Origin: an uncultured delta proteobacterium
GTDB taxonomy: Bacteria > Desulfobacterota > Binatia > UBA9968
Direction of reading: 5' to 3'
Assembly (NCBI GenBank): GCA_963840855.1
Contig: CAWJBB010000040.1
Span: 1 to 64,000 of the forward strand
DNA length: 64,000 nucleotides
Shown here: one piece after another, positions 2,825 to 6,579 of the stretch
How positions within the stretch are numbered: the first letter of the stretch is position 1
How the letters are laid out: every line of letters begins with the position of its first letter
The notes under the pieces: generated by a model
Database searches by the model: none
What the model saw: the letters and a program-made list of their open reading frames with translations, nothing else
Told to the model about the DNA's origin: nothing
Made by a program: the position numbers and the translations under genes

Positions 2825-4360
2825 TCAGCGGTTTTTCTCGTCTTGAGCCGGGACAAATACGATCTTGTCCCGCCAAGCCACCTTCTTCGTAAAGACGGAA
2901 ATAACGCTTAGCAACAGGAGCGCCAGTCCCGCCATCAGTAACACCGACGCGATGGGCCGGGTGAGAAAGATGCTATAGCTGCCCGAGGACATCGCGAGAG
3001 ATTGGCGAAAGCTCATCTCCATCATCGGCGCCAATACCAGCCCCAATACTACCGGCGCCGCCTCGAAGTCAAACTTGCGTAGCCCGTAGCCGAGCGCGCC
3101 CATCACAGTCATGATTCCGACATCGACAACGCTACCGTTGACCGCGTAAACGCCGAGAACGCAAAAAATGAGAATTGCCGGATAGAGCAACGGGTAAGGA
3201 ATTCTCAAGAGGTTAACAAAAATCCCTACGAGCGGCAGATTGAGGATCAAAAGGACGACGTTGCCTACGTACATACTGGCGATGAAGCCCCAGAAGAGCT
3301 CCGGCTTTTGTGAAATCAGCAGCGGCCCGGGCGCGATTCCATGCACCATCATGGCGGCGATCATCACGGCGGGGATAGGTCCGGATGGAACACCCAACGC
3401 GAGCATGGGAACAAAGGCTCCTGAGGTCGCCGAGTTGTTGGCCGATTCCGGACCGGCAACACCCTCGATGGCGCCTTGACCAAAGCGCTCCGGATGTTTG
3501 GAAAGGCGCCGTTCCACCGCGTACGAGACGAACGACGAGATAATGTGGGCAGAACCCGGTATTATGCCGATGAAAAACCCAAGAATCGTGCCGCGGCCGA
3601 TCGGCCAGAGCGAGTCACGCCATTCCTCGCGCGAAGGGAAAAGTTCTCCCAGCCGGGGCTTGATGACCTCGGGCGCGCTAGCCTGCCCCGCGGTCAGAAG
3701 GATCTCTGCTAGTCCGAATAACCCCACGGCCACCGGAACAACTCCAATCCCATCGCCCAGCTCGACCAACCCATAATTGAAACGAAAAAATCCGGTCATC
3801 GGGTCGATGCCGATCATGCCGAGGAGTAATCCCAACATTCCCATTGCCAGCGACTTTAGCGTGGAGCCGCTGCTCATGTAGGCGAGCGCGAGAAGGCCGA
3901 GCAGCAAAAGGGCAAAATATTCGGGTGGTCCGAAGCGAAGCGCGAAACTTGCTAAAGGCGGCGCCAGTAACATGAGACCGATAACGCTAAGGGTCCCGGC
4001 GATATAAGATCCCGCTGCCGCGATGGCCAGAGCCGGGCCGGCTCTCCCTTTGCGCGTCATTGCGTAGCCGTCGATGCAGGTCATGACCGAGGCCGCTTCA
4101 CCCGGAATGCGCATCAGTATCGAAGTCGTAGAGCCGCCGTACATCGCGCCGTAGTAGATTCCCGCCAGAAGCACGATCGCGGAAGTCGCATCCAAACCGA
4201 AGGATGCGGGAAGGAGCAAGCTGATACCGGCCAGCGGCCCCACACCCGGCAGGACGCCTACGAGTGTGCCGATAACGCAACCGATGAAAGCATAGAAAAG
4301 GACGCTGGGTGTGAGCGCGACTGAAAAGCCGAGAAAAAGATTTTGCAGAGTTTCAGTCAT
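2825..4360 (-). CDS. tctA: tripartite tricarboxylate transporter permease TctA
   Basis: GVLPGVG, YYGAMYGGS, GVAGPESANN signature; highly hydrophobic. Confidence 0.95.
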   Translation of the reverse strand: MTETLQNLFLGFSVALTPSVLFYAFIGCVIGTLVGVLPGVGPLAGISLLLPASFGLDATSAIVLLAGIYYGAMYGGSTTSILMRIPGEAASVMTCIDGYAMTRKGRAGPALAIAAAGSYIAGTLSVIGLMLLAPPLASFALRFGPPEYFALLLLGLLALAYMSSGSTLKSLAMGMLGLLLGMIGIDPMTGFFRFNYGLVELGDGIGVVPVAVGLFGLAEILLTAGQASAPEVIKPRLGELFPSREEWRDSLWPIGRGTILGFFIGIIPGSAHIISSFVSYAVERRLSKHPERFGQGAIEGVAGPESANNSATSGAFVPMLALGVPSGPIPAVMIAAMMVHGIAPGPLLISQKPELFWGFIASMYVGNVVLLILNLPLVGIFVNLLRIPYPLLYPAILIFCVLGVYAVNGSVVDVGIMTVMGALGYGLRKFDFEAAPVVLGLVLAPMMEMSFRQSLAMSSGSYSIFLTRPIASVLLMAGLALLLLSVISVFTKKVAWRDKIVFVPAQDEKNR

Positions 4361-4734
4361 CGCTTCCGCTATAAAACAAAAACTTCAGTCTTTCGTGTGG
4401 CTAATCCCTCACCACGAAGCGCAGAAGAACAAACTCAAGACAATTAATCACAAAGAGCCTAGCGCGGCTACGCCGCAACCGAAACTAGGAATATCTCGCG
4501 CAAAGCATGTCCTGAGCAAAGTCGAAGGGACGCCAAGGCCGCAAAGGTCGGAGAAAAATGGTGAAGGTCGTTTGTAAGATTATCAATCTTTCCCTTCCGA
4601 ACTTGGCGTGCTTTGCCCGTTCGACGTTGCTCAGGGTGGTGAGACCTGTATGATGGATGTTAGGTGTAACCACAAGTCCTCTTTAGCGAGTATAGTGATT
4701 CATCAAATCGCCATTGAGCGAAGGAGGACATCAG

Positions 4735-5811
4735 ATGAACAGCAAAGCGTTTATTCCCCGCGACTACGACGTGTTTGCGGGACTGGATGTGGGCAAGAAA
4801 AGTATCTCGGTGACCTTTACCAATCAGCAAGGGTTTATTCGCTCCTTGCGCGTGCCGTATAGCGCGGAGCATCTTGTGAACCACGTGCGTAAACATTTTC
4901 CCGATCAGAAAGTGGCCTTTGCCTACGAGGCGGGACCGACGGGCTACGGCTTGTACGATGGGATTGTGGCTCAAGATTACCCGTGCCTGATCGCTTCGCC
5001 ATCGATGATCCCCAAAGCGCCCGGACAAAGAGTGAAGACCAATCGGCTCGACAGTCGAGGTATTTCGGAGAATCTTCGTGGCGGACAGCTCAAGAGCATT
5101 CATGTCCCCGCTGTCCTGTACCGTGAGCTGCGCCATTTGACTCAGCTGCGCGACACCTTTGTCAGCGCGATGGTGGCGATGAAGCAGCGCATCAAGTCGC
5201 TGTTGCTTATGGAAGGGCTGGAGTTTCCCCCGGCCCCCGCCGGTAGTCAGTGGTCGTTCATGGTGAAGGCTAAACTGAGAAAGCTTCCCTGTTCTTCGAC
5301 CGTGCGTTTTGAGCTTGATCAGTTGCTTGACAGTCTGGAGTTCAACGAGAAGCAGATCGTTAAGACAACCCAACAGATCCGCCGCTTGTGTCAGAACGAT
5401 GCCGAATTGTCCCAGTGTATAAAGTACGTGATGAGCGTGTCCGGGATTGGCCAGATTGTGGCCAGTCAGCTTTTGGCTAGGATCGGCGATTGGCGTGAGC
5501 TGAGAAACGTGCGCCAACTGGGAGCCTTTCTCGGCTTGGTCCCTACCGAGAACTCCACCGGAGAGCGAACCGATCGAGGATCGATCACTCACAGCGGAGA
5601 CCCGCGGCTGAGAAGCAAACTCATCCAAGCCGCCTGGTCGGCGATCCGAAAAGACGGTGAGCTGAGGGAATTTTTCCGGGCGGTGTGCCAGAGCCATGCG
5701 CGCCCGGTGGCGTCGCGGGTGGCCATTGTGGCGGTGGCCAGAAAACTCACGGTACTGATTTCGGTGGTCTTGATGGAACAAAGACCCTATGTAGTGAGGA
5801 AAAAAGTTTAA
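4735..5811 (+). CDS. IS110-family DEDD recombinase/transposase
   Basis: GLDVGK, YEAGPTG, KTNRLD and C-terminal FLGLVP..NSTG ... AVARKL; RBS AAGGAGG at 4721. Confidence 0.93.
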   Translation: MNSKAFIPRDYDVFAGLDVGKKSISVTFTNQQGFIRSLRVPYSAEHLVNHVRKHFPDQKVAFAYEAGPTGYGLYDGIVAQDYPCLIASPSMIPKAPGQRVKTNRLDSRGISENLRGGQLKSIHVPAVLYRELRHLTQLRDTFVSAMVAMKQRIKSLLLMEGLEFPPAPAGSQWSFMVKAKLRKLPCSSTVRFELDQLLDSLEFNEKQIVKTTQQIRRLCQNDAELSQCIKYVMSVSGIGQIVASQLLARIGDWRELRNVRQLGAFLGLVPTENSTGERTDRGSITHSGDPRLRSKLIQAAWSAIRKDGELREFFRAVCQSHARPVASRVAIVAVARKLTVLISVVLMEQRPYVVRKKV

Positions 5812-5823
5812 TCGGCTCCTTTG

Positions 5824-6008
5824 ACCCAAGAGGAGACCGTGCCCCAGGGAACGCCTCGACGATAGACAGAACCGGGAGAGACAAACTCCTGACGGTTCGA
5901 TCCATGAGATAGAGAGCCCGGGGCCGAGTGCCTTAGAGAGGGGCGCATGCCAAGTCAGTGTGACGGCCATGGTGCCGTGCCACGTATAGCAGTCAGTCTC
6001 TCTTGGGT
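5824..6008 (+). ncRNA. predicted bridge/seek RNA of the IS110 element
   Basis: Closing stem 5824-5837/5996-6008; two hairpins flanked by segments matching the target (CGATAGAC, TGAG) and donor (CAAGTC, ATAGCAG) sites. Confidence 0.7.
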
Positions 6009-6054
6009 GGGGAAGGAAAAGAGTCATAAGAAAATAAGAGGGCGGTGCCGTGAC

Positions 6055-6060
6055 TTGACA
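6055..6060 (+). promoter_or_regulatory. -35 box of the circle-junction promoter (pairs with -10 TATGAT at 4649-4654)
   Basis: On circularisation TTGACA-17 nt-TATGAT is formed. Confidence 0.8.
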
Positions 6061-6135
6061 TCCACATAGCAGTCTATCGAACCACGCCTTGGCGCGAGTC
6101 AATCCCCGCATTGGAGTATTTCAGGTTACCCCACT

Positions 6136-6579
6136 TCAAAACCCAAACGGCCCCGGCGGCAAAGGCACGCGCAAGACTGAATGGAACAAAAAGAACGAGC
6201 CAAACGACAGGACGAAGGCAAACGTTAAAGACAATGCCCAACCGCGCTTTTCGACAAGCTTGAGAAGAAATGTCAGCGCAAGCAGCATGGTGAGGCGGTA
6301 ACCAAGACGCTCGATGGCGAAAACGGCAAAGGCGCACATGGCCAAGATCGCCAGCGCGTGGCGCCACTCGGTCCAACTGAGCGAAGATAATAACGGGGCG
6401 CGGCGCGCCGAGACTATGAGAATAAAGCCGAAAATCGCAAGCAGTGACGCAAGCAGGACCGGAACAAAGGCGGGGCCGGGCAGACGAAAAGTTCCCAGCG
6501 GGAGTTGACGGCTCTCCCAGATCACCAGAAGCGCAAAGAGAACCAGCGCGCTTCCCGAAACCCGGTTTGTCGTCAACAT
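6136..6579 (-). CDS. tctB: tripartite tricarboxylate transporter TctB
   Basis: 4-TM small protein, GPAFVP and C-terminal LRVPLP.G motif; upstream of tctA. Confidence 0.9.
   Translation of the reverse strand: MLTTNRVSGSALVLFALLVIWESRQLPLGTFRLPGPAFVPVLLASLLAIFGFILIVSARRAPLLSSLSWTEWRHALAILAMCAFAVFAIERLGYRLTMLLALTFLLKLVEKRGWALSLTFAFVLSFGSFFLFHSVLRVPLPPGPFGF

What the first reader, a model, noticed from the sequence alone, without database searches (positions are those of the whole stretch)
5812..6072. Bridge/seek RNA whose target and donor guides can be read from the sequence
Seen: the reconstructed empty target (minus strand) is GGTTCGATAGA-CT-CACCACC and the circle junction (donor) is CATACAGGT-CT-GCTATG. 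In the 3' non-coding end, CGATAGAC (5860-5867, equal to the target left arm plus C) and TGAG (5905-5908, complement of the target right arm) flank a hairpin at 5869-5898. CAAGTC (5951-5956, donor left arm CAGGTC with one mismatch) and ATAGCAG (5986-5992, complement of the donor right arm) flank a second hairpin at 5958-5983. A long stem (5824-5837/5996-6008) closes the whole. The right guides extend to TGAGA and ATAGCAGTC, which match the post-insertion junctions (4640-4644; 6066-6074). Established: IS110/IS1111 recombinases use a two-loop RNA, often with a CT core and handshake pairing. Inference: this is a compact, naturally programmed RNA-guided recombinase with a new target specificity.
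Basis: partly seen in the sequence, partly recalled or inferred. Interest (0 to 1): 0.85.

Follow-up and report, generated by a model that had tools for sequence, protein, structure and literature searches.

The report
IS1111-type insertion sequence with bridge RNA

Summary
Window 4644-6072 is a 1.43-kb IS110-family element of the IS1111 type. It has a 358-aa transposase (4735-5811), a 7-bp subterminal inverted repeat, a promoter formed only on circularisation, and a 261-nt 3' non-coding end.

The genome holds 4 identical copies, each inserted at ...TGAG|TCTATCGAA with a shared AG (CT on the minus strand). An uninterrupted paralogous site also exists.

In 85 homologous elements with a readable right flank, the 8-nt block at 5860-5867 matches that element's own target 8/8 in 41 and 7/8 in 29. 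With 27 distinct guides, 0 of 10,000 shuffles reach the observed mean. The base after the right donor guide (5993) equals the first flank base in 81 of 85, the handshake position described for IS621.

The right target guide and both donor guides match, but their DNA partners are nearly invariant, so they show little covariation. The left donor guide has one mismatch in this window. The two guide-flanked hairpins and the stem enclosing the target loop have some compensatory support. The long closing stem is compatible but unproven.

RNA expression has only a weak hint from metatranscriptome contigs.

Verdict: a genuine, naturally programmed bridge/seek RNA, and a new member of a kind described in 2024.

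The parts
4635..4641 (-). Right arm of the target read on the minus strand (plus-strand GGTGGTG). The other three copies have CCCTG here.
   Evidence: An uninterrupted paralogous site is on C58.
4642..4643 (.). Core dinucleotide AG (CT on the minus strand), left copy. The same AG stands at 6071-6072.
   Evidence: It is the only sequence shared by the left and right junctions in 4 copies and in most homologs (right core AG in 84 of 85 readable right junctions).
4644..4734 (+). Left end (91 nt). It holds the donor arm ACCTGTATG, a -10-like TATGAT at 4649-4654, the subterminal inverted repeat TGGATGT at 4654-4660, and the ribosome-binding site GAAGGAGGA at 4720-4728.
4735..5811 (+). Transposase/recombinase gene, 358 aa.
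   Evidence: PF01548 and PF02371. NF033542 at 205 bits. IS621 and ISCro4 chains at E about 1e-8.
5812..6013 (+). Conserved bridge/seek RNA scaffold in the 3' non-coding end.
   Evidence: 64-sequence alignment with 80% mean column identity; the variable blocks fall at the guides. In one search one metatranscriptome contig lies wholly on 5832-6011.
5860..5867 (+). Left target guide CGATAGAC. It equals minus-strand target positions up to the first core base and pairs with the plus strand at 6072-6079.
   Evidence: Covariation is shown.
5869..5898 (+). Hairpin inside the target-binding loop.
   Evidence: Helices 4 and 5 are paired in 92% and 99% of cells, with 2 pairs showing compensatory changes.
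5905..5910 (+). Right target guide TGAG (pairs with minus-strand CT-CA) plus two handshake positions. The window has AT; most homologs have AC, matching the left-end start AC.
   Evidence: In one search, 75 of 79 left junctions read TGAG in both RNA and DNA, and the one TAAG RNA sits at a TAAG junction.
5928..5946 (+). Central hairpin between the two loops.
   Evidence: Helix 6 is 97% paired, with one-sided changes only.
5951..5956 (+). Left donor guide CAAGTC. It has one A-C mismatch to the window's left end (minus-strand CAGGT-C) and is perfect against the CAAGT-C left end of most homologs.
   Evidence: 22 perfect, 13 of the window's type, and the others 4-5 of 6.
5958..5983 (+). Hairpin inside the donor-binding loop.
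   Evidence: Helix 7 is 98% paired and almost invariant.
5986..5994 (+). Right donor guide ATAGCAG (equals the right-end terminus 6066-6072) plus handshake bases TC (equal to the first flank bases 6073-6074).
   Evidence: In one search the first handshake base equals the first flank base in 81 of 85, and the second in only 29 of 85.
6014..6072 (+). Variable A-rich spacer followed by the conserved right-end terminus. The terminus holds a -35-like TTGACA at 6055-6060, the subterminal inverted repeat ACATCCA at 6058-6064, and the end CATAGC-AG.
   Evidence: The spacing in the circle junction is 17 nt.
6073..6083 (-). Left arm of the target read on the minus strand (GGTTCGATAGA).

Best explanation
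Window 4644-6072 is an active IS1111-group member of the IS110 family. Its 3' non-coding end encodes a two-loop bridge RNA (seekRNA).

Reading the DNA sites on the minus strand, the target is TTCGATAGA-CT-CA.. and the circle-junction donor is ..ACAGGT-CT-GCTATG.

- Target loop: the 5' strand (5860-5867) has the sequence of the left target arm plus the first core base, so it pairs with the opposite DNA strand. The 3' strand (5905-5908) pairs with the core plus the first two bases of the right arm.
- Donor loop: 5951-5956 and 5986-5992 do the same for the joined right and left ends.
- Handshake: the bases just 3' of each right guide pair with the other DNA after top-strand exchange.

The element excises as a circle. 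This creates a TTGACA-17 nt-TATGAT promoter across the junction. The element then inserts into the apical part of REP-like palindromes, without a duplication beyond the shared CT core.

Shown here: element ends, target, family membership by profile, guide-target and handshake covariation.

Inferred from the family's published mechanism: that the RNA, not the DNA, is the active species; that it binds the transposase; and the chemistry of strand exchange.
For: Copies and site:
- 4 identical copies share one 13-nt target, and an empty paralogous site exists.

Protein and element features:
- Pfam PF01548 and PF02371 and NCBIfam NF033542.
- The GL-P----TG motif is aligned to the SG of ISCro4.
- 3' non-coding end 261 nt against a 5' end of 91 nt, a 7-bp subterminal inverted repeat, and a junction promoter.

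Homologs:
- 100 homologous loci were fetched.
- The RNA scaffold is conserved and its variable blocks fall exactly at the guides.

Left target guide against its own target, 85 elements:
- 8/8 in 41, 7/8 in 29, 6/8 in 9, 5/8 in 3, 4/8 in 2, 3/8 in 1.
- One element per distinct guide (27): mean 6.85 against a shuffled mean of 5.03 (sd 0.21), with 0 of 10,000 shuffles reaching the observed value.

Other guides:
- The handshake base equals the first flank base in 81 of 85, over three base states.
- The degenerate paralog on C41 changed 2 guide bases together with its target.
- L019 changed its left end and its left donor guide together.

Structure:
- The stem enclosing the target loop has a pair seen as AU 44, CG 6 and UA 3. 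The inner hairpin has 2 compensated pairs.

Agreement with published work:
- The order 'match complementary to the top strand lies 5' of the bottom-strand match' is the order reported for IS1111 seekRNAs (PMC11187229, sections 9 and 12 read).
- The handshake position equals IS621's DBL P166-tDNA P7 pairing (PMC11208158, passages read).

Expression:
- Metatranscriptome contigs from 4 studies lie on the non-coding end, one exactly on 5832-6011.
Against: - No direct evidence exists for the RNA, its ends, or its binding to the protein. The contigs come from RNA libraries that may contain DNA.
- No promoter-like or terminator-like site was found in the integrated copy.
- No Rfam family matches; 7 chance-level hits, E 0.26-8.8, all far below their gathering scores.
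- The fold is not better than shuffles (z -1.5).
- The scaffold is so conserved that only 6 of 55 model pairs show compensatory change, a number that 75 of 500 shuffles reach.
- RNAalifold prefers a local 5' hairpin to the long closing stem. It also pairs CUCG (5855-5858) with the right target guide itself.
- The right target guide is only 4 nt.
- The left donor guide has a mismatch in the window and is imperfect in most elements.
- The donor guides cannot be tested by covariation because the ends barely vary.
- 15 of 85 elements match their own target at 6/8 or less.
- The guide-to-core register differs by one base between two guide classes, which the IS621 model does not predict.
- The third residue of the DEDD tetrad is Asn.
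Confidence: 0.9

Rival explanations
1. Only a short seekRNA covering the target loop (about 5840-5925) is the working species. The ends of the element are recognised by the protein through the subterminal inverted repeats. The 'donor loop' matches are then conserved sequence without a guiding role.
For: - Siddiquee et al. found 82-96-nt short seekRNAs as the main species in IS1111 members and described only target matches (PMC11187229, section 9).
- The left donor guide is imperfect in most elements, and the donor ends are almost invariant, so no covariation supports it.
- The element has a clear subterminal inverted repeat.
Against: - The base directly 3' of the right donor guide covaries with the target in 81 of 85 elements. 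That is hard to explain unless this part of the RNA meets the target strand, as in the IS621 handshake.
- The 7-nt right donor guide equals the right-end terminus in nearly all homologs.
- L019 changed its left end and its left donor guide together.
Confidence: 0.08
2. The matches are DNA-level relics, such as footprints of earlier self-insertions or copied target fragments. The non-coding end would then be only a 3' untranslated region.
For: - One copy (contig C27) carries a rearrangement whose joint lies inside the stretch coding the left donor guide, so the element can recombine within this region.
- There is no direct RNA evidence.
Against: - Relics would not keep a conserved scaffold with variable blocks that track each element's own target through 27 variants.
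- Relics would not keep the family-typical order and spacing of four guides around two hairpins.
Confidence: 0.02

Closest known systems
seekRNAs of IS1111-family elements ISEc11, ISPa11, ISKpn4, ISPst6 (Siddiquee et al. 2024, PMC11187229; sections 6, 9, 12 read)
   Same: - The long non-coding region lies downstream of the transposase gene.
- Subterminal inverted repeats and the GL-P----S/TG motif are present.
- The match complementary to the top strand lies 5' of the bottom-strand match, and the two matches overlap at the insertion point.
- A promoter forms at the circle junction.
   Different: - The transposase is distant from cultured and plasmid relatives: best plasmid hits are below 35% identity.
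- The target is different: TCGA-N4/5-CT-CAG in REP-like palindromes.
- That paper's text describes target matches only, whereas donor matches and a handshake base are readable here.
- Nothing has been tested experimentally for this element.
IS621 bridge RNA (Durrant et al. 2024, PMC11208160; Hiraizumi et al. 2024, PMC11208158; passages read)
   Same: - Two loops, each with a left guide of the same sense as the top strand and a right guide complementary to it.
- A CT core.
- Handshake bases 3' of the right guides that pair with position 7 of the other DNA.
- A DEDD-type RuvC domain plus a Tnp domain.
   Different: - The RNA sits at the 3' end, and the CT strand is opposite to the gene strand.
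- The left target guide reaches at most the first core base, whereas in IS621 it runs through the core.
- The right target guide covers only the core plus 2 bases.
- The third catalytic acid is Asn, and Thr aligns with the catalytic Ser.
- The protein alignment to IS621 covers only the C-terminal half (E 1e-8).
ISPpu9 with its Ssr9 small RNA in Pseudomonas putida (PMC12288879; abstract in the search listing only)
   Same: An IS110-family element inserted in REP sequences, with a small-RNA gene downstream of the transposase gene.
   Different: ISPpu9 has extra orphan copies of the RNA gene. Here the whole-genome DNA search found no orphan copy other than the partial tandem repeat on C27.

Membership tests
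IS110 family, IS1111 group (insertion sequence) | Transposase with an N-terminal RuvC-like DEDD domain and a C-terminal Tnp domain, scored by profile | tested here: met
   PF01548 at 50.6 bits (cut-off 29) and PF02371 at 81.8 bits (cut-off 21.3). NF033542 at 205 bits (cut-off 140).
IS110 family, IS1111 group (insertion sequence) | Catalytic tetrad Asp-Glu-Asp-Asp | tested here: inconclusive
   D18, E65 and D106 are present, but the third position is N103 (KTNRLD). This holds in 98 of 98 homologs where the motif could be read. It also holds in an annotated IS110-family transposase of Microvirga, while a Sphingobium one and two other paralogs in this genome have Asp. Multiple identical copies argue that the Asn form is active.
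IS110 family, IS1111 group (insertion sequence) | Conserved G-L-x-P-x4-S/T-G motif carrying the nucleophile | tested here: met
   The motif reads GLVPTENSTG at residues 267-276. T275-G276 align with the SG of ISCro4. STG is kept in 97 of 98 homologs. The TG variant is reported for IS1111 members (PMC11187229, section 6).
IS110 family, IS1111 group (insertion sequence) | Longer non-coding end downstream of the gene, and subterminal inverted repeats of 7-17 bp | tested here: met
   The right end is 261 nt and the left end 91 nt. TGGATGT at 4654-4660 is the reverse complement of 6058-6064.
IS110 family, IS1111 group (insertion sequence) | Site-specific insertion with no duplication beyond a shared core dinucleotide | tested here: met
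   4 copies lie in the same 13-nt site, and an empty paralogous site exists. Right core AG in 84 of 85 readable right junctions (AA in L019) and left core AG at the correctly anchored left junctions.
Bridge RNA / seekRNA | [quoted passage not shown] | tested here: met
   Left target guide: (0 of 10,000 shuffles). Right target guide: matches in 75 of 79 elements, but there is only one covarying case.
Bridge RNA / seekRNA | Guide segments matching both strands of the donor (joined ends) | tested here: inconclusive
   The right donor guide matches 7/7 and is conserved. The left donor guide matches 5/6 in the window and 6/6 in 22 of 79 elements. The ends hardly vary, so covariation cannot be tested beyond one case (L019).
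Bridge RNA / seekRNA | Handshake bases 3' of the right guides that match the other DNA | tested here: met
   Base 5993 equals the first flank base in 81 of 85 elements. The bases after TGAG equal the left-end start (A in the window, AC in most homologs).
Bridge RNA / seekRNA | Guides lie in internal loops closed by stems | tested here: inconclusive
   In the model from the minimum-free-energy fold the guides flank hairpins, and 92.8% of cells pair. Compensatory support is limited to the stem enclosing the target loop (2 pairs with a change on both sides), the inner hairpin (2 pairs) and two mostly unpaired positions of the closing stem. The model was derived from one of the aligned sequences. 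RNAalifold gives a partly different structure.
Bridge RNA / seekRNA | The RNA is transcribed, binds the transposase and is required for transposition | not testable with these tools
   There is only a weak hint: contigs in 4 metatranscriptome runs cover the non-coding end.

The most novel reading that the evidence does not exclude
This very abundant soil clade (more than 5,000 related proteins) is a natural series of reprogrammed IS1111-type bridge RNAs that departs from the IS621 rules in two ways.

1. The left target guide can sit in two registers relative to the CT core. Guides ending in C go with 4 bases between TCGA and the core (58 elements). Guides ending in G go with 5 bases (11 elements).
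2. The enzyme works with Asp-Glu-Asn-Asp and a Thr in place of the catalytic Ser.

If both are functional, the geometry of the synaptic complex in IS1111-type systems is more tolerant than the solved IS110-type structures suggest.
Probability: 0.25. Interest if true: 0.45.

Novelty: new member of a known kind. Interest (0 to 1): 0.3.

Why it matters
It shows that target, donor and handshake guides of an IS1111-type element can be read from raw sequence and confirmed by comparing relatives. It also supplies a compact 358-aa recombinase clade with at least 27 natural target-guide variants. These could serve as a ready-made specificity series for people who engineer bridge recombinases.

It does not change what is known about the mechanism. 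The one-base register difference and the Asn/Thr active-site variants are the only points a specialist might want to follow up.

Tried and rejected
- Rfam 15 scan of 4300-6500 at E up to 10: only chance-level hits.
- Promoter/terminator scan of 4550-6150: none found.
- Exact empty site in the own genome: the 13-nt pattern was built in a script from two window slices and gave 0 hits. A one-mismatch paralogous site was found through the 9-nt right half.
- RNAalifold on 64 homologs gave almost no covariation (1 of 49 pairs), so it cannot decide between the long closing stem and a local 5' hairpin. Its pairing of the left donor guide with ACUUG in the right end (6053-6057) is probably a by-product of the conserved -35 box. 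I did not follow it further.
- No covariance model was built. The MAFFT alignment was already unambiguous in the scaffold, and the covariation question was answered directly from guide and flank columns.
- First version of the permutation script had a wrong offset range that excluded placements reaching the core. Its numbers are void and are replaced.
- First left-end anchors sometimes hit inside the gene. They were redone with a longer anchor, where 79 elements had a readable left junction. L033 was lost there for lack of flank.
- Rows dropped before the count of 85: elements without a readable right end or with N in the flank, and the C27 copy, whose right end is followed by a duplicated piece. 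L084 had no anchor.
- the joints 4615/4617 to 6085/6087 are copies of the surrounding genome-wide repeat that lack both the small palindromic insert and the IS. They are not excision products. Parts of the gene without contig cover say nothing.
- One search listed only close relatives (81% identity or more), so it did not show how widespread the Asn variant is. Two plasmid elements were used instead.
- Supplementary files of the papers were not opened. The IS1111 bridge-RNA drawings of Durrant et al. (Extended Data) and the transposase alignments of Siddiquee et al. may bear on the register and Asn/Thr points.

Full report
**What is there.** The finding lies in the 3' non-coding end of a 358-aa gene at 4735-5811 on the plus strand.
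- The protein has both IS110-family Pfam domains: PF01548 at 50.6 bits and PF02371 at 81.8 bits.
- It scores 205 bits against NCBIfam NF033542, 'IS110 family RNA-guided transposase', whose cut-off is 140.
- The only solved relatives by sequence are the ISCro4 and IS621 transposases, at E about 1e-8 over the C-terminal half.

**Element ends and target.** A DNA search of the window's own genome (93 contigs, 7.1 Mb) found four copies at 100% identity over window 4640-6081. It also found two degenerate paralogs at 77-79%.
- The four copies have unrelated outer flanks. They share ...TG-AG|ACCTGTATG on the left and CATAGC-AG|TCTATCGAA on the right.
- One copy has T for C at the second flank base.
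- AG is the only sequence common to both junctions. The element is therefore 4644-6072 with a 2-nt core, AG on the plus strand and CT on the minus strand.
- An uninterrupted paralog of the window's own site (...GGCGAG|TCTATCGAACCACG) lies on contig C58.
- The window's site is the top of a small palindrome nested in a repeat found 7 times in the genome.
- In relatives the flanks form REP-like palindromes, for example CCGTTCATGCTGAG....TCGAAGCATGAACGG.

**The motifs.** All four guide motifs and both extensions are at the stated coordinates.
- The 8-mer and the 9-mer are each expected about once or less in the whole 64-kb window (1.27 and 0.24).
- Finding them within 260 nt of their partners is therefore unlikely by chance.
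- TGAG and the 6-mer with a mismatch carry no weight on their own.

**Relatives.** One scan of genome contigs gave 20 loci at 54-99% protein identity. One scan of metagenome contigs gave 80 more at 78-99%.
- The 3' ends align without difficulty, at 80% mean column identity over 64 distinct sequences.
- The block after CUCGA-CGA (window 5863-5867) takes 27 different forms.

**Left target guide against its own target.** For 85 elements with a readable right flank, I compared the 8-mer with that element's own minus-strand target.

| Matches of 8 | Elements |
|---|---|
| 8 | 41 |
| 7 | 29 |
| 6 | 9 |
| 5 | 3 |
| 4 | 2 |
| 3 | 1 |

- Taking one element per distinct guide to reduce the effect of relatedness, the mean is 6.85. 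Guides dealt out among targets give 5.03 (sd 0.21), and 0 of 10,000 shuffles reach the observed value.
- The degenerate paralog on C41 shows the same effect inside this genome. Its guide CGAGAGCC goes with the flank GCCCTCGAAGG, so two of three target differences are mirrored.

**Handshake and the other guides.**
- The base just after the right donor guide (5993) equals the first base of the right flank in 81 of 85 elements: T-T 10, C-C 50, G-G 21. The next base agrees in only 29 of 85.
- This is the position reported for IS621, where DBL position 166 pairs with target position 7 after strand exchange (PMC11208158, passages read).
- The bases after TGAG are AC in most relatives, equal to the first two bases of the left end. 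The window has AT, so one base matches.
- The right target guide TGAG equals the left junction in 75 of 79 elements.
- Three junctions read TAAG. One of these has TAAG in its RNA, and two have TGAG, which would give a G-T wobble.
- The alignment shows a second TAAG/TAAG case, L033, which was lost from the count for lack of flank.
- The right donor guide equals the right-end terminus almost everywhere, but neither varies.
- The left donor guide is perfect in 22 of 79 elements. In 13, including the window's type, it has the A-C mismatch. In the rest it matches 4-5 of 6.
- Only L019 changed its left end (ACTCG) and its guide (CGAGU) together.

**Structure.** Its energy is not unusual: z -1.5, with 17 of 200 shuffles folding at least as well.
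- I removed the few pairs inside the two loops and counted the remaining 55 pairs on the 64-sequence alignment.
- 92.8% of cells pair, against 38-54% when partners are slid. The model came from one of these sequences, so that comparison is biased.
- Six pairs show compensatory change, a number that 75 of 500 shuffles reach.
- The clearest pair is in the stem that encloses the target loop (AU 44, CG 6, UA 3). Two more are in the inner hairpin of that loop.
- The long closing stem is almost invariant. In 43 of 64 sequences it has one non-pair.
- RNAalifold prefers a local hairpin at 5816-5835.
- In summary, the guides sit beside hairpins as the model requires, the target-loop architecture has some support, and the closing stem is undecided.

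**Other element features.**
- TGGATGT at 4654-4660 is the reverse complement of 6058-6064, a 7-bp subterminal inverted repeat.
- Joining the ends gives TTGACA, 17 nt, TATGAT.
- No promoter-like site exists in the integrated copy. This fits expression from the circle or by read-through, as described for this family (PMC11187229, section 12; review PMC13604230, passages).

**Expression.** Fourteen DNA runs hold most of the element, and six metatranscriptome runs hold part of it.
- I laid four RNA runs from four studies.
- Short low-depth contigs cover parts of the gene and the non-coding end.
- One 180-nt contig lies wholly on 5832-6011 and carries the guide variant seen in close relatives.
- Contigs cannot show ends or strand, and RNA libraries can hold DNA, so this is only a hint.

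**Comparison with what is known.**
- Durrant et al. predicted a bridge RNA in the right end of 93% of IS1111 elements (PMC11208160, passages).
- Siddiquee et al. showed seekRNAs from the downstream non-coding region of four IS1111 members, with the top-strand match 5' of the bottom-strand match (PMC11187229, sections 9 and 12). That order is the one seen here.
- The element is therefore a new member of a known kind.
- It is far from plasmid-borne relatives, with best hits below 35% identity.
- It belongs to a very large environmental clade: more than 5,000 proteins at E 1e-10 or better among the candidates scored, and the best 120 all at 81% identity or more.

**Departures from the IS621 picture.**
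1. Register. Guides ending in C go with 4 bases between TCGA and the core (58 elements). Guides ending in G go with 5 bases (11 elements). There are 9 mixed cases, and 7 elements lack the TCGA anchor or have another spacing. The left guide thus pairs up to the first core base in one class and stops before the core in the other.
2. Active site. The third residue of the DEDD tetrad is Asn in 98 of 98 relatives and in a Microvirga element, while other family members have Asp. Thr, not Ser, aligns with the catalytic Ser. The Thr variant is mentioned for IS1111 members.

**Verdict.** The element is an IS1111-type insertion sequence with a readable two-loop bridge RNA (confidence 0.9). Interest is modest because the mechanism and its presence in this group were published in 2024.

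Noticed in passing
G000 contig C27, about 131975-133534 (locus L004/L007): This copy has an extra tandem repeat of the last 118 nt of the element. The first right end (..CATAGC-AG) is joined to the base after an AG inside the DNA that codes the left donor guide (window 5953-5954 / 5955). This fits a second copy nested in the first at a pseudo-site sharing AG-TC, later collapsed by recombination or by the assembler.
   Followed up: partly
window 4500-4620 and 6085-6130; also window 18906 and contigs C16, C17, C24, C39, C58: The element's target sits in a palindromic insert of about 40 nt that interrupts a repeat of about 150 nt. That repeat was found 7 times in the genome with a 16-nt probe. 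RNA-library contigs of two runs join across the insert plus the IS.
   Followed up: partly
window 5041-5052 (residues 103-106): The third acidic residue of the DEDD tetrad is Asn (KTNRLD) in all 98 relatives read and in a Microvirga plasmid element. Two unrelated IS110-family genes in the same genome (contigs C83 and C87) have KSDKLDA.
   Followed up: partly
window 5863-5867 versus 6073-6078, and the same columns in L017-L116: The left target guide occurs in two registers. Guides of form NNNNC go with 4 bases before the CT core, and guides of form NNNNG go with 5. This is unexplained.
   Followed up: partly
G000 contigs C41:52504-53792 and C85:157733-158878 (L005, L006): These are two decayed paralogs (77-79% DNA identity) with frameshifts in the gene. 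C41 keeps the RNA region and shows a guide changed together with its flank.
   Followed up: partly
window 4654-4734: Most database relatives are annotated as 385 aa, 27 residues longer at the N-terminus and starting inside the left end. In the window that frame is closed upstream of 4714, and the ATG at 4735 follows a strong ribosome-binding site. The longer annotations are probably too long.
   Followed up: no
window 5951-5955 with 6053-6057: RNAalifold pairs the left donor guide CAAGU with ACUUG in the right end, with G-U variants in relatives. If transcripts run to the element's end, the guide could be masked. Alternatively it may be a coincidence caused by the conserved -35 box TTGACA.
   Followed up: no
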